This document shows, piece after piece, positions 1 through 36,993 of a DNA stretch of 56,733 bases. A program made the translations under genes and the position numbers. Within the stretch, counting starts at the first letter, position 1. The number at the start of each line of letters is the position of its first letter. The notes beneath the pieces are model-generated. The model was not told where the DNA came from and did no database searches. It saw only the letters and a list, made by a program, of their open reading frames with translations. This stretch comes from Candidatus Tayloriibacteriota bacterium (lineage in GTDB: Bacteria > Patescibacteriota > Minisyncoccia > Phycocordibacterales > SIBU01): assembly GCA_016188455.1 (NCBI GenBank), contig JACPHR010000021.1, positions 1 through 56,733 of the forward strand, given 5' to 3'.

Positions 1-1029
1 AAACGCACTATTGAGCGTGACCGATATGGAGATATAAAGAAAACTGTGGAAAGAGACGGCAAACGTTATGCCGTAAAGCGAGACGGTAGCGAAGGACCGG
101 AGATTCCAGAAGCGCCCGAATTTCCCTCAGCGCTTAGAAAATGGGCGAGAAACGACATGACCCAGAGAGGCTACGAAATTATGTCTCTTATAAGACCGGA
201 GGCGCTCAAAATTCCAGCTCTTGCCCAAGTCATCCGCTATCCAATGATCTTTCAAAATATCCGTTACAACGAAAATGTTGCGTACCCAATTCGTAACGAC
301 CTGACCATTCGGAAAGATTACAAACTCTGGCGCTTCAGAGAGGACAATAAGCATCATGTACCGCCAAACACTGACATTGAAAGGGCTCGCGCTCTAAAGC
401 TTGCTAGAGAAGCTGCCCAAAAAGCTAGAAATGAGGCAAGAAAAATAGCAGGAAAATCAGCAACTGATATTGAAAACGCGGCCCGGGAAGCTTGGGAAGA
501 GACTATGGTTAACGAACTGCCTAATGACACTTTGAGGATGGCATATCTTAGAGATTGGCAAAATGATCGGGCGGCAAACGAAACACCTCGTGGAGACTTT
601 AGGAATCAAGGTTGGTGGCATCAAATATTGGATAGTAGCTCATATCTGGTTTATGCTCCAAAAGACGCTAGCGATATTGTAAGAGCCCAGGCCAGTATTC
701 TCGCCGCGTACATTAAAGATATTAATGGAGTGGCTGAAATGACCCAGGAAAATAAGGACGCCATAAACATATGGTTTGCCGACCGAAGAGGCAGGCAGAT
801 GCCAACGCCAAAACTTACTGGCGGGGAAGTAGAAGCTCTGGGATATAAAAATGGCATGGTTGAAATTGTTGATGAACACGGAAATAAAAAAGAGGTGTCA
901 CTCCAAGAAGTGCGTGAAAGACTTAGCCGAGTGGTGAAAATCGGAGACAAAATTGCTTTTGCGAGCGACCAAGCGAAGATTGGACTGCCAACGGCTGGCA
1001 TAGAGATTGGATCAGTAATCCCAAAATAA
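1..1029 (+). CDS. hypothetical protein, probably 5'-partial (ORF track lists 46..1029)
   Basis: Frame 1 has no stop from base 1 to the TAA at 1027-1029. The first listed start is GTG at 46, so the gene may begin upstream of the window. No family motif recognised. Confidence 0.4.
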   Translation, partial: KRTIERDRYGDIKKTVERDGKRYAVKRDGSEGPEIPEAPEFPSALRKWARNDMTQRGYEIMSLIRPEALKIPALAQVIRYPMIFQNIRYNENVAYPIRNDLTIRKDYKLWRFREDNKHHVPPNTDIERARALKLAREAAQKARNEARKIAGKSATDIENAAREAWEETMVNELPNDTLRMAYLRDWQNDRAANETPRGDFRNQGWWHQILDSSSYLVYAPKDASDIVRAQASILAAYIKDINGVAEMTQENKDAINIWFADRRGRQMPTPKLTGGEVEALGYKNGMVEIVDEHGNKKEVSLQEVRERLSRVVKIGDKIAFASDQAKIGLPTAGIEIGSVIPK

Positions 1030-1044
1030 TAAATAAGTAGAAAA

Positions 1045-2514
1045 ATGACGAACTATATTGACTATGTATTTAAATTGAAAGACACTCTGCAGCAACTGCC
1101 GCAAGCCGCACTTTTACCGTTCTCGGACGATGAGCCGATAATGGTTATCCGAGATGTTGGCTTAACTCATGAACTCATTATGCATGATGTGGGAGTGCTA
1201 TGCGAGGCAATTCGGCAAGTTATCACCAAAGAAATCGTAGTGGAAAACTTTGAAGAAACTCTGCGAGAGAAATTCTCTGATGATGGGCAGGAAAAATTGG
1301 CGGGCGTAGTCGCAGATATTAACGAGAAAATTTTTGTCAAACTCCTACCGGCCTTAGGCATGAAAGCCCTGCCGATAGTGCCGAAACCTGCGGTTGTTCC
1401 TGCGGCGGCGGAGTCCGCGACGCCGACGCCGCCTCCCCACGAGCCAGTAGTCTTCAAAGGATTCATTGGGCAACCGCGCCAAATCTACCAACAGCCGGTG
1501 AAAACCGCTACGGAGCCGCCAAGGCCGAAACCGCCGATTGTGGAAGTGAGCCATGAAAGAATGTCCGAAAAACCTTTGGATTCCTTTTTGAAAATGCTCT
1601 CGGATAAATTAAGCGAAAGGGAACTGCAGAACCGCTTTGACAAACTGCCTTACACCCTGAAGACCGCTTTGCGCTCCGTGGATTCGGCCAAAAAAGTGGT
1701 GGACATCGGCCGAAAATACGCTCTGCATGTGGACCAGCTCGGCGAACTGGGCGCGGAAACCGGTTTAGTGATTTTGGGCATCAGCCATCCGGCCCAATTC
1801 CTGCCGCGGCTCACAAGAAAGCTCGCCTTAAGCGAGGAAAAAGCCCGGCCAATCGCCCAAGAAATCAACACTGAGATATTTCTTAAAATCCGCGAGGCCC
1901 TAAAACAAATCAATGAGGAACCCGTACAGCCGCTTCAGGGCCTTCGGCCTGCCGCGCCGGCGCAAACAACGGGCGCTTGGCGCCCTTCGCCGCCGCCAGA
2001 ACATCAAGGTTCAACCTTGATGAAACCACGGCCTTCTCTTTCTTCTCCCCGACTTTCAAACTTGCGCACCAGCAACTTTCAAACTTCCGAGGCTTCTGAA
2101 GCCGAGGAGTCCCTTAACCGCGAAGCCATTTTGAAAGGCATTGAAAACCCGGTGCCGACTCCTTCGTCGCAAAACTCCTCAGGATCTCCGGCGAGTACGT
2201 CTCCGACCCGCCTAACAACTAACAACTCTGAACTAAAAACTGCTCCGGTTCCGCCGAATCTGCCGGGAGAAACCGAGGCGCCGCCGTTTACTGCCCAAAC
2301 CGCGCCCCAACCTCAAAAACCCCCCGAAGCCAAGCCCGAATCTCCAGTGCCTCCGTCTTCAGACTCTTCGCAACTTTCTAAACTTGCGGACTTACGCACT
2401 TCTCCAACTACTTCTGATGCAAACATCGTGGACCAGAAGCTTTCCGCCGTTGTCGCCGCCCCGAAATCCGAGAGTCAGTACGCGATGGACCCCTACCGCG
2501 AGCCGCTCGGCTGA
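1045..2514 (+). CDS. hypothetical protein with Pro/Ser/Thr-rich C-terminal half
   Basis: 489-aa ORF starting 15 nt after the previous stop. The N-terminal part looks globular and the C-terminal ~200 aa are low-complexity P/S/T-rich. No family recognised. Confidence 0.45.
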   Translation: MTNYIDYVFKLKDTLQQLPQAALLPFSDDEPIMVIRDVGLTHELIMHDVGVLCEAIRQVITKEIVVENFEETLREKFSDDGQEKLAGVVADINEKIFVKLLPALGMKALPIVPKPAVVPAAAESATPTPPPHEPVVFKGFIGQPRQIYQQPVKTATEPPRPKPPIVEVSHERMSEKPLDSFLKMLSDKLSERELQNRFDKLPYTLKTALRSVDSAKKVVDIGRKYALHVDQLGELGAETGLVILGISHPAQFLPRLTRKLALSEEKARPIAQEINTEIFLKIREALKQINEEPVQPLQGLRPAAPAQTTGAWRPSPPPEHQGSTLMKPRPSLSSPRLSNLRTSNFQTSEASEAEESLNREAILKGIENPVPTPSSQNSSGSPASTSPTRLTTNNSELKTAPVPPNLPGETEAPPFTAQTAPQPQKPPEAKPESPVPPSSDSSQLSKLADLRTSPTTSDANIVDQKLSAVVAAPKSESQYAMDPYREPLG

Positions 2515-2530: not shown

Positions 2531-2587
2531 GAAATGGAAAGTGGAAAAATTAAAATGGAAAATGACAAATCAAAATTTAAAATTGAA
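2531..2587. repeat. family-C inverted-repeat element, left arm (loaded copy)
   Basis: GAAATGGAAAGTGGAAAAATTAAAATGGAAAATGACAAATCAAAATTTAAAATTGAA. Its reverse complement matches the right arm at 2927-2982 and the arms at 6500-6617 and 47803-47936 (core TGTCATTTTCCAyTTTrAT). Confidence 0.7.
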
Positions 2588-2926
2588 TTCCGAAAACGTT
2601 TATATTCCTGGGTTCTGAAATTGATTAAATTTATAGACAAACTGCCAAGAAATTCCGGCAGTGATGTAATGGGAAAACAATTGTTGAGAAGCGGGACAAG
2701 TGTTCTTGCTAATTACATAGAAGCGGGTTCCGCGAGTTCTAAACGGGATTTTATAAACTTTTTTACTCATTCACTTAAATCAGCAAACGAGTCGGAAATC
2801 TGGCTTAACCTCTTAAGAGATACGAATAATGGCGATAAAATATAATCTGATTTCCTGTTAAGGGAACTGAAAGAAATTAGTAACATAATTGCCTCAAGTA
2901 TTTTGACCATGAAAGAGAAACGATAA
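2534..2926 (+). pseudogene. four-helix-bundle protein (23S rRNA intervening-sequence protein family) interrupted by an in-frame TAA
   Basis: The translation from ATG 2534 (..FRKRLYSWVLKLIKFIDKLP..GKQLLRSGTSVLANYIEAGSASSKRDFINFF..SANESEIWLNLL) resembles the intact paralog at 11620..11994. There is a TAA at 2843-2845, and the same frame continues SDFLLRELKEISNIIASSILTMKEKR to the TAA at 2924-2926, which is the expected C-terminal helix. Confidence 0.6.
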
Positions 2927-2985: not shown

Positions 2986-3414
2986 ATGCGCTTCCAAGTC
3001 CCACAATTCATTGAGGTTGAAGACAAGATTTTCGGACCGCTGACGGTCAAGCAATTCATTTACCTGGCCGGCGGCGCCGGGCTCTGCTTTATCATCTATA
3101 CTTATCTGCCCTTCTACCTCGCCATCTTAGCCATTATTCCCGTGGCGACGCTCGCCGTCGCCTTGGCGCTCTACAAAGTCAACAACCGCGCTTTCATTTT
3201 CGTCATTGAAGCGGCTTTCAAATATCTTCTGGCGAACAAGCTTTACATCTGGAAGAAAACGGACAGAAAAATAGAAACCAGAAAAATAGAAAAAGAAGCG
3301 CCGGCAGTTTACGTGCCCAGACTCTCCGACAGCAAGCTCAAAGACTTGACTTGGAGTTTAGACATCAACGACAGCGCCAGCCTAGGAGCATCGGAGACGA
3401 TGCGGAAGGGCTAG
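2986..3414 (+). CDS. PrgI-family small membrane protein (T4SS-associated)
   Basis: The N-terminus MRFQVPQFIEVEDKIFGPLTVKQFIYLAGG followed by two adjacent TM helices is the signature I recall for PrgI-family proteins of Gram-positive conjugation loci. It lies upstream of a VirB4-like ATPase. Confidence 0.6.
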   Translation: MRFQVPQFIEVEDKIFGPLTVKQFIYLAGGAGLCFIIYTYLPFYLAILAIIPVATLAVALALYKVNNRAFIFVIEAAFKYLLANKLYIWKKTDRKIETRKIEKEAPAVYVPRLSDSKLKDLTWSLDINDSASLGASETMRKG

Positions 3415-3416
3415 CG

Positions 3417-3465
3417 CATTCATACCAATATACGAATTATACGAATGCTACAAATAACTACTAAT
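3417..3465. repeat. family-A (ATTAGTA/ATTCGTA-type) inverted-repeat element, left arm (loaded copy)
   Basis: CATTCATACCAATATACGAATTATACGAATGCTACAAATAACTACTAAT. It aligns with the left arms at 4575, 7580 and 46539, and is complementary to 3860-3908. Confidence 0.75.
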
Positions 3466-3846
3466 AAGGGGAAAAAGGTAGAGCTACTATACCCTGAACT
3501 ATCCTATAAGATAACTGGCGTTTGTTTCGCCGTACATAACGCGTTGGGACAATTCGCCCGAGAGAAACAGTATGGCGACTTGCTGGAGAAAAAATTTGCC
3601 GAAGCCGGAATGATATTTCAGAGGGAATTACTCGTTGGAAATATCGGCAACATTCTGGATTTTGTAGTAGAAAATAAAATCATTGTTGAACTTAAAGCGA
3701 AACGGCTGATACTTGCCGAGGATTATCGCCAACTGCAAAATTACCTCCAAGAATCCGGGCTACAACTCGGCTTGCTCATAAATTTCAGAAATAAATATCT
3801 AAAACCCGCACGGGTCGTTAGAATAGAAAAATATGTGGTAAAATAG
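3445..3846 (+). CDS. GxxExxY protein (PD-(D/E)xK-like; family known from 23S rRNA intervening sequences)
   Basis: ELLYPELSYKITGVCFAVHNALGQFAREKQYGDLLEKKF...VVENKIIVELKA...YRQLQNYL..GLQLGLLINF is the typical layout and ExxY core of this ~130-aa family. The first 7 codons lie inside the left repeat arm. Confidence 0.75.
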   Translation: MLQITTNKGKKVELLYPELSYKITGVCFAVHNALGQFAREKQYGDLLEKKFAEAGMIFQRELLVGNIGNILDFVVENKIIVELKAKRLILAEDYRQLQNYLQESGLQLGLLINFRNKYLKPARVVRIEKYVVK

Positions 3847-3859
3847 AAAAGCAATTTCT

Positions 3860-3908
3860 GTATCATTCGCAGTTATTAGTAGTATTAGTATAATTCGTAT
3901 ATTGGTAT
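3860..3908. repeat. family-A inverted-repeat element, right arm (loaded copy)
   Basis: GTATCATTCGCAGTTATTAGTAGTATTAGTATAATTCGTATATTGGTATG. Its last bases supply the ATG of the next ORF (3907). Confidence 0.75.
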
Positions 3909-4554
3909 GGCCAGTCCCACAAAGGCGACGCAGGAGTTCGTGCCGGTCAAAGAAGTCCGCGACGGCATTATCATTCTCAAAGACGGCTCGTTCCGCGCCG
4001 TTCTTATGACATCGTCCTTAAATTTCGCCCTCAAATCGGAGGATAATCAAAACGCCATCATCTTGCAGTTTCAAAACTTCCTCAATTCGCTTGATTTTTC
4101 CATCCAGCTGTTTATTGAATCCAGAAAGCTGGACATCAGGCCGTATCTGGCGCTCCTGGAAGGCCGATACAAAGAACAGGCGACCGACCTGATGAAGGTC
4201 CAGACCAGAGAATACATAGAATTCATTAAAAATTTCACGGAGAACGCGAGCATCATGACCAAAACTTTTTTCGTGGTCGTACCTTACGCGCCGGCGCCGC
4301 TCCAAGCCAAAGGCGGAGTGGTGGAGCTGGCCGGCAAACTGCTAACGCGTAAGGAGGCCGAAGAGAAAGTGGAGAAAAAGCAGGATACCTTTGAAGAAAA
4401 CCGCAGCCAGCTTTTGCAGCGGCTATCGGTGGTGGAGCAAGGCTTGCTGCGCTGCGGCATCAGGGCCGTGGAGCTAGGCACGGAAGAAGTGGTTGAGTTG
4501 TTTTATAAGATTTTCAATCCCGGCGACACCGAGAAGCCCATTCAGATAAATTAG
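3907..4554 (+). CDS. hypothetical protein resembling the N-terminal (non-ATPase) domain of Gram-positive VirB4/ConE proteins
   Basis: ATQEFVPVKEVRDGIIILKDGSFRAVLMTSSLNFALKSEDNQNAIILQFQNFLNSLDFSIQLF resembles the N-terminal region of conjugative VirB4-type ATPases. It has no Walker motifs and lies directly upstream of the ATPase gene. Confidence 0.45.
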   Translation: MASPTKATQEFVPVKEVRDGIIILKDGSFRAVLMTSSLNFALKSEDNQNAIILQFQNFLNSLDFSIQLFIESRKLDIRPYLALLEGRYKEQATDLMKVQTREYIEFIKNFTENASIMTKTFFVVVPYAPAPLQAKGGVVELAGKLLTRKEAEEKVEKKQDTFEENRSQLLQRLSVVEQGLLRCGIRAVELGTEEVVELFYKIFNPGDTEKPIQIN

Positions 4555-4574
4555 TCCCTAATTTATCTGAAGTT

Positions 4575-4682
4575 GATACCAATATACTAATGCATACGAA
4601 TCTACAAATAACTGCGAATGGAACTCACTCTTTTTCACATTAGTAGTTATTCGTAGTATTAGTATAATTAGCAGATTAGTAT
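4575..4682. repeat. family-A inverted-repeat element (empty, ~17-nt loop)
   Basis: Left arm GATACCAATATACTAATGCATACGAATCTACAAATAACTGCGAATG and right arm CATTAGTAGTTATTCGTAGTATTAGTATAATTAGCAGATTAGTAT. It fills the 3907..4554 / 4681..6501 spacer, and the ATG at 4681 lies at the arm end. Confidence 0.75.
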
Positions 4683-6501
4683 GAGTTTTTTAAATAATCT
4701 ATTCGGTAAAAAACAGAAGGCACCGGACATCGCCTCCATTTTACCTCAGGAAATCTACGAGGCCGGCGTGCTGGAGCTCAAAGACGTCATCGCGCCGTCG
4801 GCTTTGAAAGTAACCCCTAGGGCGCTTAACCTCGGCGACAAAATCGTCCGCACCTTTTTCGTCATTTCCTACCCGCGATTTCTTGCCGCCGGCTGGTTCT
4901 CGCCCATTATCAACCTTGATAAGGCCTTTGACATCGCCATCTTCGTCCACCCGATTGACACTGCCACGGTGCTCCGCCAGTTCCAGAAAAAAGTGGCCGA
5001 GGTCCAAAGCCAAATCAGCGGCCGGGAAAAGAAAGGCCTGGTCCGGGACCCGATGCTTGACACCGCTTATCAAGACCTTGAGCGGCTGCGCGACAACTTG
5101 ATGCAAGCGCAGGAGAAGCTCTTTGACGTCGGTCTCTACATTTCAATCTACGGGGACAACGAAACGGAGCTGGACAAGCTTGAATCAGAAATAAAGTCCC
5201 TTCTGGAATCAAAGCTAATCTACCTCAAACCCGCCCTCTTCCAGCAGGAGCAGGGTTTTAGGAGCGTTATGCCTATAGCCCAAGATGAGCTGATGATTCA
5301 TTCCAAACTCAACTCCGCGCCGCTCTCCTCTCTGTTTCCATTTACCTCTTTTGACCTGACCTCCGACAAAGGCATTCTCTACGGCATCAACCGGCACAAC
5401 TCTTCCCTGGTGCTCTTTGACCGTTTCAGTTTGGAAAACTATAACTCAATCGTGTTCGCCAAGAGCGGCGCGGGCAAGAGCTATATGGTTAAGCTTGAGA
5501 TTCTCCGAACACTGATGTTTGACACCGAGGTCATCGTCATTGACCCGGAGAGGGAGTACGAGTACATGGCCGAAGCCACCGGCGGCAAATACTTTACCAT
5601 TTCGCTCAACTCGCCCCACCACATCAACCCTTTTGACCTCCCCATACCTCGGGAAGACGAATCCAGCACGGACGTCTTGCGCTCCAATACCATAAATCTC
5701 GTCGGCCTCTTCAGAATTATGTTGGGCGGGCTGACCCCGGAAGAGGACGCTTTGATTGACCGCGCCATCAGCGAAACTTACGCTCTCAAAGACATCACGC
5801 CGGACTCTGATTTCAAAAACGTGGAGCCACCGCTGCTATCGGACTTTGAGCTGGTGCTCGCCGGCATGGAAGGCGGGGACTCGCTGGTCCAGCGCTTGAG
5901 CAAGTACACCCGAGGCACTTGGGCCGGCTTCATCAACAGGCCGTCAAACATAGATATTGATAGCAAATTCATCGTCTTCTCGCTCCGCGACATGGAAGAC
6001 GAACTCAAACCGGTGGCCATGTACATCGTGATGCACCACATTTGGACTGCCATCAGGAAAAACCTAAAGAAGCGGCTTATGGTTATTGACGAAGCCTGGT
6101 GGATGATGAAATCCGACGACACGGCCTCGTTTTTGCTCAGCTTGGCCAAGCGGGGACGCAAATATTACTTGGGTCTCGCCACTATCACCCAGGACGTGGA
6201 CGACTTCCTGAAATCCTCCTACGGCTTGCCCATCATCACCAACTCCTCCATTCAGATGCTTTTGAAGCAGTCGCCATCATCCATTGACCGGGTGCAAAAA
6301 GTCTTCAACCTCACCGACGAAGAAAAATACCTTTTGCTGGAGTCGGATGTCGGCGAAGGCATCTTTTTCGTCGGTCTGAAGCATGTGGCCATTAAAGTCA
6401 TCGCCTCATACACCGAAGACCAGATTATCACTTCCGACCCGTCGCAACTCTTGGCCATCAAAGAGGCGAAGAAAGACCTAGAGACATCGCAGGGGAATTG
6501 A
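4681..6501 (+). CDS. virB4: VirB4/TraC/ConE-like type IV secretion ATPase
   Basis: Walker A AKSGAGKSYMVK, Walker B-like RLMVIDEAWWMM and a long N-terminal VirB4-type domain (YPRFLAAGWFSPIINLDKAFDIAIFVHP). 606 aa. Confidence 0.8.
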   Translation: MSFLNNLFGKKQKAPDIASILPQEIYEAGVLELKDVIAPSALKVTPRALNLGDKIVRTFFVISYPRFLAAGWFSPIINLDKAFDIAIFVHPIDTATVLRQFQKKVAEVQSQISGREKKGLVRDPMLDTAYQDLERLRDNLMQAQEKLFDVGLYISIYGDNETELDKLESEIKSLLESKLIYLKPALFQQEQGFRSVMPIAQDELMIHSKLNSAPLSSLFPFTSFDLTSDKGILYGINRHNSSLVLFDRFSLENYNSIVFAKSGAGKSYMVKLEILRTLMFDTEVIVIDPEREYEYMAEATGGKYFTISLNSPHHINPFDLPIPREDESSTDVLRSNTINLVGLFRIMLGGLTPEEDALIDRAISETYALKDITPDSDFKNVEPPLLSDFELVLAGMEGGDSLVQRLSKYTRGTWAGFINRPSNIDIDSKFIVFSLRDMEDELKPVAMYIVMHHIWTAIRKNLKKRLMVIDEAWWMMKSDDTASFLLSLAKRGRKYYLGLATITQDVDDFLKSSYGLPIITNSSIQMLLKQSPSSIDRVQKVFNLTDEEKYLLLESDVGEGIFFVGLKHVAIKVIASYTEDQIITSDPSQLLAIKEAKKDLETSQGN

Positions 6502-6617
6502 AAATTAAAATATTAAAAATCAAAGTGACAATGAAAAGTTAAAAATTACTAATTCCTCGTATCCAGAAGTTTTTAATTTTAATCTGTCATTTTCCATTTT
6601 GATATTTCATTTTTCAT
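6500..6617. repeat. family-C inverted-repeat element (empty)
   Basis: Left arm GAAAATTAAAATATTAAAAATCAAAGTGACAATGAAAAGTTAAAAATT and right arm GTTTTTAATTTTAATCTGTCATTTTCCATTTTGATATTTCATTTTTCAT. It fills the virB4 / 6630 spacer. Confidence 0.75.
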
Positions 6618-6629
6618 ATTCACCTAGTT

Positions 6630-7574
6630 ATGGCACAAAAACTTTGGTCTGAAAACAAAGAGAAAAAGAAAGATGGACCAGACATCTCCAACACCGAGTG
6701 GGGTATGGTAATCTCGCTTCTTTTTATAGTTGACGGCATTCAAATCGGTCTTGACCTCTTGTTTCAAATAGGCGTTATTGTCAACCGCTTTATTGATGTC
6801 GTGGTGGGGTTCGCCTGGCCGACTTACCTCTACTTGCGCGGCGTGAACTTGAAAAGCGTGAAGGTGGTCGGTAGTATACTGCTGACTTTTTTCCTTGAGG
6901 AAATCCCCGATGTGGACGCTTTGCCGCTTTGGGGCGCCGACGGGCTCTTCGTGCTTTCTGTCACCAAAGCGGAAGAAAAAATTAAAGAGGAAACGGGGGT
7001 TGATGTTGAAAAAGCCGCGGCGCTTGCCGGAGGAGGGGGCACGGTGGAAAGTGAGGGGGGCGGTTTGGCCGCGGGCGAAGCGGCGGAAGCAGGCGGCGCG
7101 GCGGCCGAGGGGACGGCAGGGGCAAGAGGGGAAGCTGAAACTTTGGCAGAGGGTGAAGGGGTTGGAGCGGCTGAAGGAGGGGAAAGGGGCGGAGTGGAAG
7201 CCGAAGGGCCTCCTGGAGCGGCTGAAGGAGAAGGTGAAGAGGAAGAACAAAAAGAGGGAACGCAAGAACAAGCAAGAGAGAAAAAAGAAAAGGAGGGTGA
7301 GGAAACGCCGGAAGAAAAAAAGAAAAAAGAAGGAGAGGAAAAGGCTAAAGGGGAAGACAAGAAAAGACCTCGAGCTCGCGAGGAAGGTTTTGGTTTCGGC
7401 GGAGGTCAAGGGAGGAGGGAAGGCGCGGCGGGAGCGGGTTCCGACCCTCTCAATTTGCGAGGGGGGCCAGACGAAAGGCGAAAATCTGAAAAAGAGTCCG
7501 AGCGCTTGCACAGCAACCTTTTGGACCTGTCGCTCTCCTACGGCGAACGGAAGAAGCGGCAGGAAGAGGAGTAG
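6630..7574 (+). CDS. membrane protein with long Gly/Ala/Glu/Lys-rich disordered tail
   Basis: The N-terminal ~110 aa contain 3-4 hydrophobic helices. The remainder is GA-rich low complexity (GEAAEAGGAAAEG.., EEKKKKEGEEK). Operon context supports this frame; the other open frames here are artefacts of the purine-rich tract. Confidence 0.5.
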   Translation: MAQKLWSENKEKKKDGPDISNTEWGMVISLLFIVDGIQIGLDLLFQIGVIVNRFIDVVVGFAWPTYLYLRGVNLKSVKVVGSILLTFFLEEIPDVDALPLWGADGLFVLSVTKAEEKIKEETGVDVEKAAALAGGGGTVESEGGGLAAGEAAEAGGAAAEGTAGARGEAETLAEGEGVGAAEGGERGGVEAEGPPGAAEGEGEEEEQKEGTQEQAREKKEKEGEETPEEKKKKEGEEKAKGEDKKRPRAREEGFGFGGGQGRREGAAGAGSDPLNLRGGPDERRKSEKESERLHSNLLDLSLSYGERKKRQEEE

Positions 7575-7579
7575 ATAAA

Positions 7580-7690
7580 CATACCAATATACTAATGCAT
7601 ACAAATCTACGAATGGCTACTAATGTTACAACTGAGAGTCTGATTCGTAGTTATTAGTAGTATTAGTATAATTCGTATATTGGTATTGGT
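7580..7690. repeat. family-A inverted-repeat element (empty)
   Basis: Left arm CATACCAATATACTAATGCATACAAATCTACGAATGGCTACTAATG and right arm GATTCGTAGTTATTAGTAGTATTAGTATAATTCGTATATTGGTATTGGT. Confidence 0.75.
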
Positions 7691-7715
7691 GCCTGCCAAG
7701 TGATAAAATAGAACC

Positions 7716-8747
7716 GTGATGAAATACTTCTTTATTGCACTTTTGCTAATATCCGCCACATTAGTACCGAATGGTGTCTATGGACAGGCCTTCCAAAGCC
7801 TCGGCGGCGAGGCAAGTAATGTGACTGTGCGCACCGAACCGCCAGCGCCCGGGCCAAACCAGTTTGTCAGCGCCATTATTGAAAGTTACGCCACGGACCT
7901 CAACCGCGCCGACATTGCTTGGTTCCTCAACAACAAGTTGGAAAAGGAAGCCGTCGGCGCAAAAACCTTTCTGTTCAAAACCGGCAGAGCCGGCAGCGTC
8001 TCAAATATTTTGATTGTCATAAAAACGGCCGAAGGCGAAACTCTCCAGCAAGTTCTCAACATCCGGCCCGCGTCGCTTGACCTCGTCTGGGAGGCCCAGT
8101 CCTACACGCCGCCTTTCTACCGCGGCAAAGCCCTTTACCCCTATCAAGGAACGGTCAAGCTCGTGGCCATGCCGAATATCGTAACTGAAACCGGCGCGAC
8201 CGTAAGCGCTAAAAATCTTGTTTATACCTGGTCAGTGGATGGCGATGTTGTCACCAGACTTTCAGGCTACGGTAAGAATTTCATATTTTTTAACGGCTCT
8301 ATACCGCTCGGCCCCGCGACCATTGAAGTGGAAGCGGCGTCACTTGACAAAAAATACAAAGCCACGGGCTCGGTGACACTCAGCCCGCAGGGCTCGGAAG
8401 TTTTGGTTTATGAGGACAATCCGCTCTACGGCGTGCTTTACAATAAAGCGCTCGGGGGCAATGTCACGCTCCAAAACGAGGAGATTAAACTAGCCGGCAT
8501 CCCTTATTTCATCGGGGTGAAGGAGCGGGAGAACGCCGGTCTCGCTTACGAATGGCGGCTGAACAACGAGCTGGTCAGCGGCGGGGCCAAAAGCAGTCTG
8601 GCCTTCAAACAGAGCGGCGGCGCGGGCGGCACAGCCTTGGTCTCGCTTCAAATTTCCAATCCGGCTAAAATTTTCCAATTTGCCAACGTCAGTCTTTCCT
8701 TGTCCTTCGGCCAAAAATCAGCCCCCAACTTATTTGGAGCGCCATGA
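7716..8747 (+). CDS. secreted hypothetical protein
   Basis: Signal-peptide-like N-terminus MKYFFIALLLISATLVPNGVYGQA. Its stop overlaps the next start (ATGA at 8744-8747), indicating translational coupling with the pilin-like gene. Confidence 0.5.
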   Translation: MMKYFFIALLLISATLVPNGVYGQAFQSLGGEASNVTVRTEPPAPGPNQFVSAIIESYATDLNRADIAWFLNNKLEKEAVGAKTFLFKTGRAGSVSNILIVIKTAEGETLQQVLNIRPASLDLVWEAQSYTPPFYRGKALYPYQGTVKLVAMPNIVTETGATVSAKNLVYTWSVDGDVVTRLSGYGKNFIFFNGSIPLGPATIEVEAASLDKKYKATGSVTLSPQGSEVLVYEDNPLYGVLYNKALGGNVTLQNEEIKLAGIPYFIGVKERENAGLAYEWRLNNELVSGGAKSSLAFKQSGGAGGTALVSLQISNPAKIFQFANVSLSLSFGQKSAPNLFGAP

Positions 8748-9679
8748 GATTAAAAAAGCGTAAAAAAATATCAGAAAGGCTGGCGATATTCGGCTTCCTT
8801 ATTTTATTTTCCAGCATTTTGTCGGTGCCTGTGTTTTCAGCCTACGGCTTAGACTATGTGCCGCTGGCACCGATAGAGGGCACAACACTGACCTGCGCAC
8901 AACCTCCCTGCGGCACAAACTTAAGTTATTACCTCACCGGCCTATTTAAAGTCGGCATCGCCGTGGCGGGTGTTTTGGCGTTTCTGGTGATTGTCTGGGG
9001 CGGCTTCACCTATCTTTCCACCGATGTCATTACCGGCAAGGAGGAAGGCAAGGCGAGAGTGGAGCGCGCCTTAGGCGGCCTTATCATTGCCCTCGCGGCC
9101 TATATTCTTCTCAACACTATCAACCCGCAATTAGTTAAGCTTAACCTCAATTTCGGCCCGAGGGCGGAGCTGAGAGAGGGCTTGGCCAGACCAGCTGACC
9201 TTATTTCCGAGAACACGAATCTAAGAAGTATAGAAACGTTGACGGCGGATAGGGCTGAATTTAGAGGAATGAACGCGGCCCGGTTGAATCAAGAGATTCA
9301 GGCTTTGAACGCAGTTTCACAAACAAGAGGCTTAACAGCCGAGGAAGAAGAAAGACTGGTAGAGCTTGGCATAATAAGGGACGGTAGCACAGCAATGAAT
9401 AAAATTGACGAAGTACAAGGCACTATCACTTCTGGATTAGGTAGCTCTGGTTTACCCTCATCACTAGCCAGAGACGCGCGCGCTGCTTTAGAGCAGCTCC
9501 GGATTGAAGTCAACACACGCATAGCGGCAATGGCGGCTACCGGGGCAACCGTGGGACAAATGCAGGCAGTCCGAGACAGATTTAACACAGCAGCCAGATT
9601 GATAGAAGCCTGTATTACTTACAGAAAGAATATTGTAAATGACAATGCGCGGGCCAATTTCAATCGTTTCTGCAAATAA
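8744..9679 (+). CDS. T4SS pilin-like protein (TrbC/VirB2-type, CPR pilin family) with C-terminal extension
   Basis: Signal/TM region, a Cys pair (CAQPPC), then YLTGLFKVGIAVAGVLAFLVIVWGGFTYLSTD..GKEEGKARVERALGGLIIALAAYILLNTINP: two TM helices around a charged loop, as in VirB2/TrbC-like pilins. An extra ~180 aa follows. Confidence 0.6.
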   Translation: MRLKKRKKISERLAIFGFLILFSSILSVPVFSAYGLDYVPLAPIEGTTLTCAQPPCGTNLSYYLTGLFKVGIAVAGVLAFLVIVWGGFTYLSTDVITGKEEGKARVERALGGLIIALAAYILLNTINPQLVKLNLNFGPRAELREGLARPADLISENTNLRSIETLTADRAEFRGMNAARLNQEIQALNAVSQTRGLTAEEEERLVELGIIRDGSTAMNKIDEVQGTITSGLGSSGLPSSLARDARAALEQLRIEVNTRIAAMAATGATVGQMQAVRDRFNTAARLIEACITYRKNIVNDNARANFNRFCK

Positions 9680-9693
9680 CCTGTGTCAAAAAT

Positions 9694-9741
9694 ATGTCCA
9701 AAAAAACCGCCTTCATTATCATAATTATATTTGTCCTCCTT
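9694..9741 (+). repeat. direct repeat: duplicated first 16 codons of the gene at 10354
   Basis: ATGTCCAAAAAAACCGCCTTCATTATCATAATTATATTTGTCCTCCT matches 10354-10401 (ATGTCCAAAAAAACCGCCGCAATTATTATAATCGTCTTCGTCCTCCT) at about 40/48 positions. This copy hits TAA after 16 codons. Confidence 0.8.
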
Positions 9742-9748
9742 TAACTTC

Positions 9749-10249
9749 ATGACTGCGCCCAAACACAACTTTGCGTTTATAGATGCCCAGAATGTCCATT
9801 TGGGCATCCAGTCGCTCGGCTGGGAGCTTGATTGGGGACGATTCAGAGTGTATCTGCGGGATAAATACAAAGTAGCCGAAGCCTATTTGTTTCTTGGATA
9901 TGTACCTGACAATCAAAAACTGTACGAGTATTTGCAAAAATCCAGTTTCATTCTAATCTTCAAACCGCTAGTTTGGAACAAAGACGGAACCGTAAAAGGA
10001 AATTGCGATGCTGACTTAGTACTTCACACGATTCTTAAAATCAATGAGTACGATAAGGCAATTATTGTAACAAGCGACGGAGATTTTTACTCGCTCGTAA
10101 GACACCTTTACGAAAATGGTAAGCTACTTTTTGTCTTGAGTCCGTATGTAAAAACTTGCTCAAAACTTCTGCGAAGGGAAGCTAAAGAGAAAATTTACTC
10201 GATGGATAATCTGTGGCAGAAACTTGGACGAGAAAAGTTTAGAAAATGA
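9749..10249 (+). CDS. NYN (LabA-like, PIN-related) domain protein
   Basis: NFAFIDAQNVHLG...AYLFLGY...NCDADLVLH...AIIVTSDGDFYSLV is the typical acidic-residue pattern of NYN/LabA ribonuclease-like domains. Confidence 0.7.
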   Translation: MTAPKHNFAFIDAQNVHLGIQSLGWELDWGRFRVYLRDKYKVAEAYLFLGYVPDNQKLYEYLQKSSFILIFKPLVWNKDGTVKGNCDADLVLHTILKINEYDKAIIVTSDGDFYSLVRHLYENGKLLFVLSPYVKTCSKLLRREAKEKIYSMDNLWQKLGREKFRK

Positions 10250-10353
10250 AAACGCACCGCGCAGACACAAAGACTGCGAGATGCGTTTCCTTATGGATAC
10301 TGGAATAGTAGCAAACTGCAGAAAGAAGTCAAGCAAAAAGGTATAATAAACCC

Positions 10354-11589
10354 ATGTCCAAAAAAACCGCCGCAATTATTATAATCGTCTTCGTCCTCCT
10401 CATCGCCGGAGGTTTCCTGGCTTTCTATTTTTACGCCAACCAAGACCAGGACAACAACATCGTCGGGCCGGAGAGTCGCGGCAATATTTTCCCGACCAGC
10501 CCCGCCGCCGGAGGCGCCCAAACTCAGGGTGGCGCGGCGCCAAGCCCGCAACCGCCCGCCGAAAGCGGCACCCGGGCGGCACCGGTGCTTAAAGAACTTT
10601 CAGAGCGCCCTAGTGCTGGGGCGGTGGCGCTGGCCGCATCATCAACCGTACTCGTGCGTTTTGTTGAACGGGGCACGGGCAATGTCTATGAGGTCGGGCC
10701 GGCGCGAGATGGTGAAACCCGCCTCTCCAATACCACTGTGCCAAAAATAGAAGAGGTCTTGTGGCATAAGGACGGCAGAAAAGTCATCCTCCGTTACGCC
10801 GGCGATGACGGCGACTCCATCAAAACTTACAGCGCCTCTCTCGCCGCCAAAGCCTCAGGGGAAGCCGAGGACTCGCTCCAAGGAGCCTTTCTGACTGAAA
10901 ATATCCGGGCGGTGGCGGCAAATCCCGACCAAAACAAGCTGTTCTATCTCTTGCAAGACGCGGGCGGCAGCACCGGCATCATAGCAGAATTTGACGGCGC
11001 CAGAAAAACCCAAATCTTTGATTCGCTCCTACAGGAATGGCTTGTGGCATGGCCGACGCCAACGACTGTTGCCCTCACGAGCAAACCTTCCGCGGGGGTC
11101 CCGGGCTTTTTGTTTCTTTTGAACACCCGAACCGGCGCCCTGACTCGGGCCATATCGGGCATCAAGGGTCTAACGGCTCGGGTCAGCCCGACCGGCTCGC
11201 TGGTCCTTTATGGGGAAAGTCTCCCCCAAGGGCTTTCCTTAAAAATTTATCCTTTTAGTAACGCATCCTTGCGAGAAACGGCCGTGGCCACCCTGCCCGA
11301 AAAATGCCTTTGGTCAAAAAACGACCCGGGGGCTTTATACTGCAGCGTGCCGTCGTACCTGCCAACCGGCAACTACCCCGACGACTGGTACAAAGGGCTG
11401 GTGGCGTTCTCGGATGACATTTGGAAAATTGACAGCCGGACGGGGGCGGGAGAACTACTGGCAAAGCTTAAAGATAACACTGCAAAAGACATAGACGGCA
11501 TCAACCTGTTTATGAGCCCGAGAGAAGATTATCTTTTCTTCATCAACAAAAACGATTTTCATCTATGGAGTTTGCGGATTCAAAACTGA
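10354..11589 (+). CDS. membrane-anchored hypothetical protein (possible beta-propeller ectodomain)
   Basis: N-terminal TM helix (AAIIIIVFVLLIAGGFLAFYF), a Pro/Ala-rich linker and a ~330-aa beta-rich region. No family recognised. Confidence 0.5.
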   Translation: MSKKTAAIIIIVFVLLIAGGFLAFYFYANQDQDNNIVGPESRGNIFPTSPAAGGAQTQGGAAPSPQPPAESGTRAAPVLKELSERPSAGAVALAASSTVLVRFVERGTGNVYEVGPARDGETRLSNTTVPKIEEVLWHKDGRKVILRYAGDDGDSIKTYSASLAAKASGEAEDSLQGAFLTENIRAVAANPDQNKLFYLLQDAGGSTGIIAEFDGARKTQIFDSLLQEWLVAWPTPTTVALTSKPSAGVPGFLFLLNTRTGALTRAISGIKGLTARVSPTGSLVLYGESLPQGLSLKIYPFSNASLRETAVATLPEKCLWSKNDPGALYCSVPSYLPTGNYPDDWYKGLVAFSDDIWKIDSRTGAGELLAKLKDNTAKDIDGINLFMSPREDYLFFINKNDFHLWSLRIQN

Positions 11590-11624
11590 ATAACTTATGA
11601 CTAACAACTGAATTACTGAATGAC
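11585..11624. repeat. family-B (CTGAATGAC-type) inverted-repeat element, left arm (loaded copy)
   Basis: CTGAATAACTTATGACTAACAACTGAATTACTGAATGACC, complementary to 11994-12033. Same family as 14284-14379. Confidence 0.7.
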
Positions 11625-11994
11625 CATGAGAAGATTTAGATTTTTGGATTGGGATGTATACAAAGACGCACGACGATTGTTTGTTGTTATTCTGTCTATC
11701 GTAAAGAAACTCCCAAAAGAATATCGCTATGAAATAGGTAGCCAAATTATCCGTGCTTGTTTCTCTGTGGTACTAAACATTGCGGAGGGAAGTGGAAAAC
11801 ACTCTGAAGCTGAACTTAATCGTTTTTTTGATATAGCCCTTGGTTCTTTGTTTGAAACACTGGCTGCGGTAGATGTATTACGCGAATGCACCTTAGTTGA
11901 AGAAAAAGTATTTTTTGAAGTTGAAAAATTAGCAACAAGTATTTCCAACCAACTTGGTGGATTCAAAAAACACATACGAGGGGGTTCCATCTAG
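11620..11994 (+). CDS. four-helix-bundle protein (23S rRNA intervening-sequence protein / Avd-like family)
   Basis: 124 aa. F.FLDWDVYKDARRLF..I..KLPKEYRYEIGSQIIRACFSVVLNIAEGSGKHSEAELNRFFDIALGSLFETL..L is the characteristic pattern of this family. Confidence 0.8.
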   Translation: MTMRRFRFLDWDVYKDARRLFVVILSIVKKLPKEYRYEIGSQIIRACFSVVLNIAEGSGKHSEAELNRFFDIALGSLFETLAAVDVLRECTLVEEKVFFEVEKLATSISNQLGGFKKHIRGGSI

Positions 11995-14148: not shown

Positions 14149-14283
14149 TTATATCGCAAGTTTCTTTCGGCCTTTTTGCCGCCGCCGAGCGACTATTGCT
14201 CGGCCGCCCGGTTTTTTCTGCCGCGCCAAAAAGCCGTGGGTTCTGGCGCGCTTCTTCTTTTTAGGTTTGTAGGTGAAGCTCAT
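14149..14283 (-). CDS. rpmH: 50S ribosomal protein L34
   Basis: Not in the ORF track (44 aa). Hand translation gives [44 protein letters not shown], the classic L34 pattern (..R..THGF..R......GR.V...RR.KGRK.L). It lies upstream of rnpA. Confidence 0.85.
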
Positions 14284-14379
14284 GATGAATGACAAATCAC
14301 TGATAACTGAATGACTGAATGACAAACACCTTTATTGTGTGATTCAGTAATTCAGTTATAAGTTATCAGTTATTCAGTG
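14284..14379. repeat. family-B inverted-repeat element (empty) in the rpmH-dnaA spacer
   Basis: Left arm GATGAATGACAAATCACTGATAACTGAATGACTGAATGACAAAC and right arm GTGTGATTCAGTAATTCAGTTATAAGTTATCAGTTATTCAGTG. Confidence 0.7.
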
Positions 14380-14475: not shown

Positions 14476-14588
14476 TCCCGTTAAAAGCTTACAAACAGCC
14501 CTTATAACATTTTTATGCCAAGCCGCGCAGATTTAATAAATAATAAAGCGTACGGAAACGACTGGGTCGTTCCCCGCTTCTAACGGGA
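14476..14588. repeat. family-E stem-loop element ending at the dnaA start codon
   Basis: Arms TCCCGTTAAAAGC (14476-14488) and GCTTCTAACGGGA (14576-14588). The last A is the A of the dnaA ATG. Confidence 0.55.
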
Positions 14589-36992: not shown

Positions 36993-36993
36993 G

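What the first reader, a model, noticed from the sequence alone, without database searches (positions are those of the whole stretch)
2986..11589. Minimal Gram-positive-type T4SS-like gene set without relaxase, coupling protein or obvious VirB6, next to the replication origin
The co-directional genes encode, in order:
- a PrgI-like 2-TM protein;
- a VirB4-N-terminal-domain-like protein with no ATPase domain;
- a full VirB4-type ATPase;
- a membrane protein with an acidic disordered tail;
- a secreted protein translationally coupled (ATGA overlap at 8744) to a VirB2/TrbC-like pilin carrying an unusual ~180-aa C-terminal extension;
- after an inserted NYN gene, a membrane-anchored beta-rich protein.
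No relaxase, VirD4/TcpA, oriT-like nick site or integrase is visible, and the locus sits about 3 kb from rpmH-dnaA. This looks like a chromosomal, non-conjugative derivative: a candidate cell-cell contact, DNA-uptake or effector-delivery apparatus in an episymbiont-like organism. The separate VirB4-N-like ORF ahead of the ATPase is an unusual split or duplication.
Basis: partly seen in the sequence, partly recalled or inferred. Interest (0 to 1): 0.7.

Follow-up and report, generated by a model that had tools for sequence, protein, structure and literature searches.

The report
Known Patescibacteria type IV secretion locus
This is the chromosomal type IV secretion-like gene cluster that ultra-small Patescibacteria (here a Parcubacteria/Paceibacteria-type organism) carry next to their replication origin; the system is real and probably important, but its make-up, its lack of conjugation genes and its position near dnaA were already published in 2023-2025, and its function is still unknown.

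Summary
They are PrgI/VirB3, a TrsD-like VirB4-N-terminal protein, a CD1110-type VirB4 ATPase, a small membrane protein, a secreted protein, a VirB2-like pilin-domain protein and a membrane-anchored beta-rich protein.

Two points are wrong.
- "No VirB6" is an edge artefact. The window is a whole contig, and bases 1-1029 are the 3' end of a gene whose counterparts in relatives are polytopic TrbL/VirB6-like proteins.
- The separate VirB4-N ORF is not an odd split. It is the TrsD family, the commonest VirB4 partner in Patescibacteria, and it also occurs in a Bacillota megaplasmid.

The order VirB6-up2-PrgI-TrsD-VirB4-(small membrane)-triIg-pilin-propeller-yidC-rnpA-rpmH-dnaA recurs in 80 Paceibacteria genomes. 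No relaxase, coupling protein or integrase was found in the 56.7-kb window or among gene families recurring within ~9 kb upstream in 41 relatives.

Wang 2023, Quinonero-Coronel 2025 and a 2025 review already describe this system, so it is already known.

Modest additions from this work:
- the secreted partner models as three Ig-like domains;
- the last partner models as a tethered beta-propeller;
- the single pilin carries a near-orphan C-terminal module, replaced between close relatives.

The parts
1..1029 (+). 3' end (343 codons, no start in the window) of an extended VirB6/TrbL-like gene: the hydrophilic C-terminal tail only. The transmembrane domain lies beyond the contig end.
   Evidence: The frame is open from base 1. 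It aligns to residues 907-1159 of the 1195-aa polytopic protein L001:2733-6320 (E 9e-28) and to the tail of the L082 orthologue. That orthologue has 6 hydrophobic helices and matches the family HMM at E 2e-105. Family members pass Pfam TrbL PF04610 (28.5 and 31.9 bits against a gathering score of 25.9). Four of 30 members hit TrbL, the top family.
1045..2514 (+). Conserved soluble protein ('up2') between VirB6 and PrgI: a helical domain (two copies here by my reading of the sequence), Pro-rich linkers, and an invariant C-terminal DPYRE motif. Function unknown.
   Evidence: Found at this position in 59 of 80 loci by blastp and 42 of 80 by tblastn. D482, Y484 and E486 are invariant and R485 is nearly invariant. 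No hydrophobic helix. No Pfam, NCBIfam or PDB match.
2534..2845 (+). Inserted accessory gene, not part of the conserved module: four-helix-bundle '23S rRNA intervening sequence protein'.
   Evidence: PF05635, 52.4 bits. It is absent at this position in most related loci, and IVP genes sit at varying intergenic positions elsewhere.
2986..3414 (+). PrgI family protein (VirB3 equivalent), a small membrane protein.
   Evidence: PF12666, 39.5 bits against a gathering score of 27. Present in 79 of 80 loci, median 57% identity.
3445..3846 (+). Inserted accessory gene, not part of the conserved module: GxxExxY / PD-(D/E)XK nuclease-superfamily protein.
   Evidence: TIGR04256, 75 bits; PF13366, 77 bits. 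Among the 80 loci only L001 has it. L082 has a 78-aa remnant.
3907..4554 (+). TrsD-type protein: a stand-alone homologue of the N-terminal part of VirB4, with no ATPase domain.
   Evidence: NCBIfam VirB4_plasma positions 101-233 (E 4e-11), CD1110 positions 2-119 (E 6e-8), TrsD NF041427 (E 1e-3). The 93%-identical orthologue in L082 carries PF26593 TraC-like. Present in 79 of 80 loci, median 63% identity. hhalign gives 99.4% probability to the 274-aa gene upstream of a Pontibacillus VirB4.
4681..6501 (+). VirB4-type ATPase of the CD1110 family (the MPF_FATA class in the nomenclature of PMC12102498), short form. It covers profile positions 185-733.
   Evidence: NF045971, 357 bits against a cut-off of 325. 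P-loop_TraG and AAA_10. Walker A AKSGAGKS is readable in the translation; Walker B LMVIDE at residue 466. 77-91% identical in 80 Paceibacteria genomes and 27-37% to Bacillota/Actinomycetota plasmid VirB4.
6630..7574 (+). Small membrane protein (hydrophobic helices in about 125 aa) with a lineage-specific Glu/Gly/Ala-rich tail of 189 aa (net charge -17).
   Evidence: Hydropathy and composition. A 110-200-aa membrane ORF occupies this slot in most of the 68 loci compared, and about 12 loci have no room for one; phmmer links many of them to the window protein. The long tail is seen only here, in L001 and in L082. No Pfam or NCBIfam hit.
7716..8747 (+). Secreted protein of three tandem Ig/FnIII-like beta-sandwich domains, with its stop overlapping the pilin start (ATGA).
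   Evidence: AlphaFold2 mean pLDDT 90.8. Foldseek gives only generic tandem-Ig matches (Hoc, SiiE, SGBP-B). N-terminal hydrophobic segment. Present in 73 of 80 loci. Overlap confirmed.
8744..9679 (+). VirB2/T4SS_pilin-domain protein: signal peptide, two hydrophobic helices with a basic loop (residues about 36-132), then a 176-aa C-terminal extension predicted to be extracytoplasmic.
   Evidence: PF18895, 18.6 bits here. 42 of 42 orthologues hit PF18895 and 4 hit TrbC/VirB2. Hydrophobic segments at 13-31, 66-84 and 109-127. It is the only pilin-core gene in the 56.7 kb. The extension shows no similarity in the closest relative or in the 80 loci, and has 6 relatives in 1.84 billion representative proteins.
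9731..10249 (+). Inserted accessory gene, not part of the conserved module: NYN-domain protein.
   Evidence: PF01936, 57 bits. Absent from all 80 genome loci. Shared only with the close relative in L082-L084.
10354..11589 (+). Membrane-anchored beta-propeller: TM helix 3-28, disordered linker 31-74, propeller 79-408.
   Evidence: AlphaFold2 mean pLDDT 88.0. Foldseek gives generic WD40/TolB/acylaminoacyl-peptidase propellers. Present in 60 of 80 loci at this position.
11620..11994 (+). Inserted accessory gene, not part of the conserved module: second four-helix-bundle IVP protein.
   Evidence: PF05635, 89.6 bits.

Best explanation
This is the vertically inherited, chromosomal type IV secretion system of a Paceibacteria/Parcubacteria-type Patescibacterium. 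It descends from the monoderm (MPF_FATA, CD1110-like) conjugation machinery but is no longer linked to DNA-processing genes.

Shown by sequence and structure prediction:
- A membrane/cytoplasmic motor is encoded. It consists of a VirB6-like polytopic protein (cut by the contig end), PrgI/VirB3, a TrsD-type VirB4-N-terminal protein and a VirB4 ATPase with intact Walker motifs.
- A set of envelope or surface proteins is encoded. It consists of a small membrane protein, a secreted three-Ig-domain protein, one VirB2-like pilin-domain protein with a variable outward-facing C-terminal module, and a tethered beta-propeller.
- The motor is very conserved and the exposed parts are very variable.

Inferred from what is known of other T4SSs: VirB4, held at the membrane by PrgI, TrsD and VirB6, energises assembly of an envelope-spanning channel. 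It probably extracts the pilin-domain protein from the membrane to build a surface fibre or display structure. The Ig-domain protein and the propeller would serve as wall-spanning or contact scaffolds.

Inferred function: contact-dependent exchange with the host cell (export of proteins, or import of host molecules), not conjugation. The substrate is unknown.
For: Family assignments.

Conservation and position:
- The same gene order sits at the same chromosomal site (between ksgA and yidC-rnpA-rpmH-dnaA) in 80 Paceibacteria genomes.
- Median VirB4 identity is 80%, against DnaA 63%, DnaN 50% and YidC 47% in the same genomes.
- Against the closest relative: VirB4 94%, TrsD 93%, DnaA 90%, tri-Ig 79%, propeller 79%, pilin core 58%, pilin extension no similarity, VirB6 tail 26%.

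No conjugation module:
- No relaxase, VirD4/TcpA or integrase was found among the window ORFs. The larger or ambiguous ones were scanned against Pfam. The rest I judged only by reading the first 90 residues printed.
- None appears among the gene families recurring within ~9 kb upstream in 41 relatives.
- GC content of the locus matches its flanks.

Structure models: tri-Ig pLDDT 90.8 and TM-tethered propeller pLDDT 88.

Literature:
- In Southlakia epibionticum the homologous T4SS (SEML1_0006-0019, with pilins and no recognisable relaxase or coupling protein) is essential for epibiotic growth (PMC10633639).
- PMC12102498 reports the same repertoire (VirB4, TrsD, PrgI/VirB3, VirB2-like pilins, few relaxases) and the dnaA/rnpA/rpmH/ksgA neighbourhood in Paceibacteria.
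Against: - No experiment exists for any Paceibacteria T4SS.
- No VirB8-like or VirB1-like component was recognised in the locus.
- A coupling protein could lie elsewhere in the genome. PMC12102498 found VirD4-like genes in most Patescibacteria genomes, usually far from virB4. Only one 56.7-kb contig is available here.
- A 176-aa extension on the pilin may be incompatible with VirB2-type polymerisation.
- The comparison of VirB4 with DnaA identity is biased, because the 80 loci were chosen as the best VirB4 matches.
- The window ORFs not scanned against Pfam were judged only by eye from their N-termini.
Confidence: 0.75

Rival explanations
1. An ordinary integrated conjugative element, or its remnant, whose relaxase, coupling protein and integrase lie just outside the contig.
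For: The contig ends inside the locus, so upstream content of this genome is unseen. VirB4 is of the CD1110 type found on conjugative plasmids and ICEs.
Against: In 41 related genomes with ~9 kb of upstream sequence examined, the recurring upstream genes are VirB6-like, two surface proteins, ksgA and a UvrD-type helicase. None is a relaxase, coupling protein or integrase. The locus sits at the same chromosomal site in 80 species-level genomes. GC content equals that of the flanks. PMC12102498 finds relaxases in only 103 of 3,035 genomes, and transfer of VirB4 between classes is rare.
Confidence: 0.04
2. An import machine: a T4SS-derived apparatus that takes up DNA, nucleotides or other host molecules, by analogy with the H. 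pylori ComB system.
For: Patescibacteria lack nucleotide, amino-acid and lipid synthesis. The PNAS perspective and the FEMS review both raise uptake as a possibility. No coupling protein or relaxase is present.
Against: There is no direct evidence. In S. epibionticum a comEC deletion abolishes competence but not viability while the T4SS is essential, so the essential role is not ComEC-dependent DNA uptake. No comEC or other competence gene turned up among the ORFs examined.
Confidence: 0.15
3. A surface-structure assembly system only: VirB4 builds an adhesive fibre, or displays the pilin-fused variable module, and nothing is translocated.
For: There is a single long pilin-domain gene, translationally coupled to an Ig-repeat protein. 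The outward-facing module is near-orphan and hypervariable. One orthologue each carries YkuD, Peptidase_M15_4, CHAP or He_PIG domains in that position. No coupling protein was found.
Against: A VirB6-like channel component with a long cytoplasmic tail is conserved, which suggests translocation. The genome also encodes type IV pili for adhesion (pilB, pilM, pilO).
Confidence: 0.12

Closest known systems
The Patescibacteria-clade T4SS (Quinonero-Coronel et al. 2025, PMC12102498; Southlakia epibionticum SEML1_0006-0019, Wang et al. 2023, PMC10633639)
   Same: MPF_FATA-type VirB4. A TrsD-like gene next to it. PrgI/VirB3. A VirB2-like pilin gene nearby. VirB6. No relaxase or coupling protein nearby. 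Location near dnaA, dnaN, rnpA, rpmH and ksgA, as reported for Paceibacteria.
   Different: Saccharimonadia and Microgenomatia carry arrays of 2-11 short pilins. This clade has one long pilin-domain protein in 63 of 66 loci. No peptidase or lysozyme gene follows virB4 here, unlike S. epibionticum. The tri-Ig protein, the tethered propeller, the small membrane protein and the DPYRE-motif protein were not named in the parts of those papers I read.
Conjugative MPF_FATA systems of Bacillota: pCF10 Prg/Pcf; pGO1/pSK41 Trs (TrsD-TrsE)
   Same: PrgI family protein directly before VirB4 and a VirB6-type polytopic protein before that (pCF10 layout). The VirB4 passes the same NCBIfam family (CD1110) as PrgJ. 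Per PMC12102498, a separate TrsD gene occurs in the pGO1 subclass.
   Different: pCF10 has a full-length 796-aa VirB4, a VirD4-like coupling protein, a relaxase, a PrgK hydrolase, PrgL and LPXTG adhesins. None of these was found here. Direct hhalign of the TrsD, pilin and VirB6 families against single pCF10 proteins was not significant.
Pontibacillus sp. ALD_SL1 megaplasmid locus NZ_CP062975 (351.8-361.4 kb), with NCBIfam 'Mbov_0395 family pilin-like' and 'Mbov_0397/CD1110 VirB4' families
   Same: Layout: pilin-like gene, 779-aa gene, 116-aa gene, 274-aa TrsD-like gene, short VirB4. VirB4 is 34% identical to the window's. The TrsD-like gene gives hhalign 99.4% (E 7e-22). The pilin core gives hhalign 97% (E 6e-11). 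PLSDB types the record as non-mobilizable.
   Different: The pilin is short (151 aa) with no extension. A large peptidoglycan endopeptidase follows VirB4. The locus is not next to the replication origin genes. The match of its 779-aa protein to the VirB6-like family is weak.
Helicobacter pylori ComB DNA-uptake T4SS
   Same: A T4SS without relaxase or coupling protein, used for something other than conjugation. It is cited as the precedent for import.
   Different: ComB is a diderm VirB2-4, 6-10 system working with ComEC. No homology beyond VirB4-class ATPases was tested here.

Membership tests
Patescibacteria-clade T4SS (MPF_FATA-derived) | VirB4 ATPase of the MPF_FATA/CD1110 type | tested here: met
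   NF045971, 357 bits against a cut-off of 325. P-loop_TraG, AAA_10.
Patescibacteria-clade T4SS (MPF_FATA-derived) | VirB4 belongs to the monophyletic Patescibacteria clade | tested here: inconclusive
   No tree was built. By similarity, the best 80 matches in GTDB species genomes are 77-91% identical. Those whose titles name a lineage name Patescibacteria-group lineages; several are titled only 'bacterium' or 'uncultured bacterium'. The best plasmid-borne non-CPR VirB4s are 27-37% identical.
Patescibacteria-clade T4SS (MPF_FATA-derived) | TrsD-like and PrgI/VirB3 genes next to virB4 | tested here: met
   Found in 79 of 80 related loci.
Patescibacteria-clade T4SS (MPF_FATA-derived) | VirB2-like pilin gene near virB4 | tested here: met
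   The window protein is sub-threshold (18.6 against 26.6 bits). 42 of 42 positional orthologues hit PF18895.
Patescibacteria-clade T4SS (MPF_FATA-derived) | No relaxase or coupling protein adjacent; chromosomal site near dnaA/rnpA/rpmH | tested here: met
   The window ORFs not scanned against Pfam were judged by eye. The rest of the genome is unavailable.
Conjugative T4SS / ICE of monoderms | Relaxase, VirD4/TcpA coupling protein, and (for ICEs) integrase and att sites | tested here: not met
   None was found in the 56.7-kb window or among the gene families recurring upstream in 41 relatives. att repeats were not searched for.
Conjugative T4SS / ICE of monoderms | VirB1-like wall hydrolase and VirB8-like (NTF2-fold) component in the cluster | tested here: not met
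   No hydrolase domain or VirB8-like hit in the locus proteins scanned. The two unknown partners modelled are Ig repeats and a propeller. The small membrane protein and up2 were not modelled.
TrsD/TraD family (NF041427) / Pfam TraC-like PF26593 | Score above the family cut-off | tested here: inconclusive
   NF041427 gives 18.6 bits against a cut-off of 200. The 93%-identical orthologue in L082 is listed with PF26593 TraC-like in precomputed Pfam. That model did not appear in my own Pfam scan.
TrsD/TraD family (NF041427) / Pfam TraC-like PF26593 | About 200-aa protein encoded just upstream of virB4, homologous to the VirB4 N-terminus and lacking the ATPase domain | tested here: met
   No similarity to the 606-aa VirB4 itself.
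VirB2/TrbC pilin | Signal peptide plus two hydrophobic helices separated by a short basic loop | tested here: met
   Hydrophobic segments at 13-31, 66-84 and 109-127. Loop GKEEGKAR.
VirB2/TrbC pilin | Small mature protein consisting essentially of the hairpin | tested here: not met
   311 aa with a 176-aa extension. Family median is 340 aa.
VirB2/TrbC pilin | Polymerises into a T4SS pilus | not testable with these tools
   Needs imaging or biochemistry.
VirB6/TrbL | Polytopic membrane protein (5 or more helices) matching TrbL profiles, encoded in the cluster | tested here: inconclusive
   The window holds only the tail. Orthologues in relatives have about 5-8 hydrophobic segments by hydropathy, signal peptide included. 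Some pass PF04610; 4 of 30 hit it. No PDB sequence match.

The most novel reading that the evidence does not exclude
In this Paceibacteria clade the T4SS has a single pilin-domain protein whose outward-facing C-terminal module (about 140-300 aa) is swapped or diverges beyond recognition between genomes whose VirB4 is 94% identical. The module is near-orphan in 1.84 billion proteins. In single orthologues it is a peptidoglycan-active enzyme (YkuD, M15, CHAP). It could be a host-specificity or host-wall-remodelling module displayed along, or delivered by, a T4SS fibre. That would be a pilin-fused effector or adhesin, a mode I did not find described in the T4SS literature I read.
Probability: 0.2. 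Interest if true: 0.6.

Novelty: already known. Interest (0 to 1): 0.27.

Why it matters
The Patescibacteria T4SS matters. It is nearly universal in a huge, mostly uncultured radiation and is essential in the one species tested, and its substrate and direction of transport are unknown. This locus adds no new kind of system.

What it does add:
- The apparent lack of VirB6 is a contig-end artefact.
- A fuller parts list for the Paceibacteria version: extended VirB6, a DPYRE-motif protein, a small membrane protein, a tri-Ig protein, and a tethered propeller.
- The motor is more conserved than DnaA, while the surface-exposed pilin module turns over completely between close relatives. That pattern is expected of a host-contact organelle.

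Tried and rejected
- Exact look-up of the window's VirB4 in public assemblies found nothing.
- Profile searches of the VirB6-like, TrsD, tri-Ig, propeller and up2 families against PDB sequences gave nothing useful: only low-complexity noise, or weak Ig and TolB hits.
- hhalign of the TrsD family against pCF10 PrgJ was not significant. The same holds for the pilin family against PrgF and PrgG, and for the VirB6-like family against PrgH. Single-sequence templates are a weak test.
- BLASTP of the TrsD-like protein against the 606-aa VirB4 showed no similarity, so the duplication idea was rejected.
- Member-by-member Pfam scans of the up2 family gave nothing.
- The promoter and terminator scan was not clearly above shuffled expectation and was not used.
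- Rfam found only five tRNAs.
- I considered the 314-aa membrane protein as the missing VirB6. I rejected this because it has only a few hydrophobic helices in about 125 aa, and because a true TrbL-like gene lies upstream in relatives.
- The long antisense ORFs at 6624-7604 and 6830-7360 are, in my judgement, by-products of the low-complexity Glu/Gly/Ala-rich coding stretch.

Full report
**Observation.**
- 2986-3414 is a PrgI family protein (PF12666, 39.5 bits against a gathering score of 27).
- 3907-4554 (215 aa) matches only the N-terminal part of VirB4 profiles: NF045975 positions 101-233, E 4e-11; NF045971 positions 2-119, E 6e-8; TrsD NF041427, E 1e-3.
- 4681-6501 (606 aa) passes NCBI's cut-off for CD1110-family VirB4 (357 against 325 bits) over profile positions 185-733. 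It keeps a Walker A motif (AKSGAGKS) and Walker B (LMVIDE).
- The ATGA overlap at 8744-8747 is real.
- 9731-10249 is an NYN gene.
- rpmH (14149-14283, minus strand, identified by eye) and dnaA (14588-15934) lie about 3 kb beyond the last gene.

**The missing VirB6 is an edge artefact.**
- Frame 1 is open from base 1 to 1029, so a gene is cut by the window edge.
- The window's own protein is on record with a longest contig of 56,733 bases, so the window is a whole contig.
- The 342 residues encoded at the edge align to residues 907-1159 of a 1195-aa protein in the closest GTDB genome locus (L001; E 9e-28).
- They also align to the tail of the orthologue in a closer metagenomic relative (L082; E 4e-26).
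- Both orthologues have a hydrophobic N-terminal segment (complete in L001 only), several further hydrophobic helices, then a long hydrophilic tail.
- A protein of this family lies immediately upstream of the 1045-2514 homologue in 41 of 41 related loci with full upstream sequence.
- TrbL/VirB6 (PF04610) is the top Pfam family among members (4 of 30).
- Database homologues pass its gathering score (28.5 and 31.9 against 25.9 bits), and others nearly reach TrbL_4.
- So an 'extended VirB6' is part of the locus, and the window shows only its tail.

**The separate VirB4-N ORF.**
- It shows no similarity to the 606-aa VirB4, so it is not a duplication.
- Together the two proteins tile a full-length VirB4 profile.
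- Its 93%-identical orthologue in L082 is listed under Pfam PF26593 'TraC-like'.
- The best-covered annotated hit among plasmid-borne VirB4s (34% identity) is on a Pontibacillus megaplasmid. It is preceded by a 274-aa gene that matches the TrsD family at hhalign probability 99.4%.
- That locus also has a pilin-like gene matching the pilin core at 97%.
- The arrangement is therefore ordinary for this T4SS subclass.

**Conservation and context.** A VirB4-based scan of 185,579 species genomes returned at least 543 relatives.
- The best 80 are 77-91% identical. Those whose titles name a lineage name Patescibacteria-group lineages: Taylor-, Zambryski-, Campbell- and Nomurabacteria, Paceibacterota, and many MAGs labelled 'uncultured Candidatus Saccharibacteria'. 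Several are titled only 'bacterium' or 'uncultured bacterium'.
- The order up2-PrgI-TrsD-VirB4-(small membrane protein)-triIg-pilin-propeller-(jag)-yidC-rnpA-dnaA-dnaN recurs throughout.
- Upstream lie the VirB6-like gene, a 550-840-aa secreted protein with discoidin and Ig domains, a roughly 300-aa TSP3-repeat membrane protein, ksgA and a UvrD-type helicase.
- The GxxExxY, NYN and IVP genes are lineage-specific insertions.
- Median identities are VirB4 80, TrsD 63, DnaA 63, PrgI 57, DnaN 50, YidC 47, pilin 37, tri-Ig 33 and propeller 33%. The caveat is that the loci were chosen by VirB4 similarity.
- The rest of the window is housekeeping plus type IV pilus genes (pilB, pilM, pilO).
- I found no relaxase, VirD4/TcpA, integrase or comEC there. 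Most large ORFs were scanned against Pfam; the remainder I read by eye.
- GC content of the locus equals that of its flanks.

**The uncharacterised partners.**
- The 343-aa secreted protein models confidently (pLDDT 90.8) as three tandem Ig/FnIII-like domains. It gives only generic structural matches.
- The 411-aa protein models (pLDDT 88) as a TM helix, a 44-residue disordered linker and a beta-propeller. It resembles WD40, TolB and peptidase propellers.
- The 314-aa protein is a member of a fast-evolving family of 110-200-aa membrane proteins that fills the slot after VirB4 in most loci. Its Glu/Gly/Ala-rich tail is confined to this lineage.
- The 489-aa up2 protein has no hydrophobic helix, belongs to no known family, and ends in an invariant DPYRE motif.

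**The pilin.**
- Every one of 42 positional orthologues hits PF18895 T4SS_pilin, and four also hit TrbC/VirB2.
- The window has a single pilin-core gene, as do 63 of 66 related loci. This contrasts with the pilin arrays reported for Saccharimonadia and Microgenomatia.
- Most orthologues carry a C-terminal extension that varies in length and sequence. Single members carry YkuD, Peptidase_M15_4, CHAP or He_PIG domains there.
- Against the closest relative (VirB4 94%, DnaA 90%), the pilin's first 171 residues are 58% identical. The last 141 show no similarity at all, nor do they in any of the 80 loci.
- A full HMMER scan of 1.84 billion representative proteins found only six relatives of the extension. 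Four of these (220-302 aa) align at about the same position as in the window protein.
- After signal-peptide cleavage, the two-helix hairpin should place this module outside the cell. This is an inference from topology.

**What is already known.**
- Wang et al. 2023 (PMC10633639) showed that the S. epibionticum T4SS (SEML1_0006-0019) is essential for epibiotic growth. It resembles Gram-positive conjugative systems, has essential pilins, and lacks recognisable relaxase and coupling proteins.
- Quinonero-Coronel et al. 2025 (PMC12102498) surveyed 3,035 genomes. They report a monophyletic Patescibacteria VirB4 clade within MPF_FATA and the repertoire TrsD, PrgI/VirB3, VirB6 and VirB2-like pilins (PF18895). 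They also report few relaxases, and proximity to dnaA, dnaN, rnpA, rpmH and ksgA in Paceibacteria and Microgenomatia.
- A 2025 review (PMC12857230) and a 2024 perspective (PMC11665869) state that the function is unknown. They speculate on effector delivery or uptake of host molecules.
- Every headline point of the finding is therefore in print.

**Mechanism.**
- Shown: homology, topology, synteny, and the gradient from a conserved motor to variable surface parts.
- Inferred: VirB4, docked through PrgI, TrsD and VirB6, powers assembly of a channel. It probably also powers a fibre or display structure built from the pilin-domain protein. The tri-Ig protein (translationally coupled to the pilin) and the tethered propeller would act as envelope or contact scaffolds.
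- The role would be contact-dependent exchange with a host cell rather than conjugation. I put about 0.75 on this general reading.
- Export versus import, or a display-only function, cannot be decided here.
- An ICE reading is very unlikely given the fixed chromosomal site across 80 genomes and the housekeeping genes upstream in relatives.

**Verdict.** The locus is real, correctly recognised in outline, and biologically important, but it is already known. The only modestly new points are the parts list for the Paceibacteria version and the near-orphan, rapidly replaced outward-facing module on a single long pilin.

Noticed in passing
window 2534-2845, 3445-3846, 9731-10249, 11620-11994; L082 9248-9898: Four small accessory genes (two PF05635 four-helix-bundle 'IVP' proteins, a GxxExxY/PD-(D/E)XK protein and an NYN protein) sit in intergenic gaps of the T4SS operon. 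IVP genes occupy different gaps of the same operon in at least 10 of 80 related genomes. The closest relative has an IS200-like Y1 transposase in yet another gap. The operon seems to be a repeated landing site for small, possibly mobile genes.
   Followed up: partly
window 8744-9679 compared with L082 11032-12144: The pilin C-terminal 141 aa has no detectable similarity in a genome whose VirB4 is 94% and DnaA 90% identical. It has only six relatives in 1.84 billion representative proteins. The VirB6 tail (26%), up2 (50%) and the small membrane protein (49%) are also far more diverged than their neighbours.
   Followed up: yes
L081 (Pontibacillus sp. ALD_SL1 megaplasmid NZ_CP062975, 351.8-361.4 kb): A Bacillota replicon typed as non-mobilizable carries this gene order: an 'Mbov_0395 family pilin-like' gene, a 779-aa gene, a 116-aa gene, a TrsD-like gene, a short CD1110 VirB4, then a peptidoglycan endopeptidase. 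VirB2-like pilin genes are therefore not unique to Patescibacteria among monoderm T4SSs, contrary to a statement in recent reviews.
   Followed up: partly
window 1045-2514 and orthologues (alignment A9): A conserved soluble protein between VirB6 and PrgI has an invariant C-terminal DPYRE motif and no known family. It might be a docking motif or a substrate or adaptor of the system.
   Followed up: partly
window 14282-14378: Short tandem repeats ATGACTGA (x5.6) and ATTCAGTT (x4.9) lie between rpmH and dnaA. They may be origin-region elements.
   Followed up: no
window 25399-27075 (-), 36405-38729 (-): Type IV pilus genes lie on the same contig: a PilB-type ATPase (T2SSE), PilM, a 178-aa gene between them that may be PilN (no Pfam hit), and PilO.
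   Followed up: partly
window 40423-42151: A 475-aa GIY-YIG/NUMOD homing-endonuclease-like gene lies next to tRNA-Ser, in the lowest-GC stretch of the contig (about 0.41 against about 0.49).
   Followed up: no
window 6624-7604 (-), 6830-7360 (-), 6895-7578 (+): Long overlapping ORFs occur in other frames and on the other strand across the Glu/Gly/Ala-rich tail of the 314-aa gene. In my judgement they are artefacts of low-complexity coding sequence, not genes.
   Followed up: partly
L001-L080, upstream of the VirB6-like gene: Two further co-directional conserved genes precede VirB6 in about 40 of 41 relatives. One is a 550-840-aa secreted protein with discoidin (F5/8 type C) and Ig-like domains. 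The other is a roughly 300-aa membrane protein with a bacterial TSP3 repeat. They are probably adhesin-like parts of the same locus, and they lie beyond this contig's end.
   Followed up: partly
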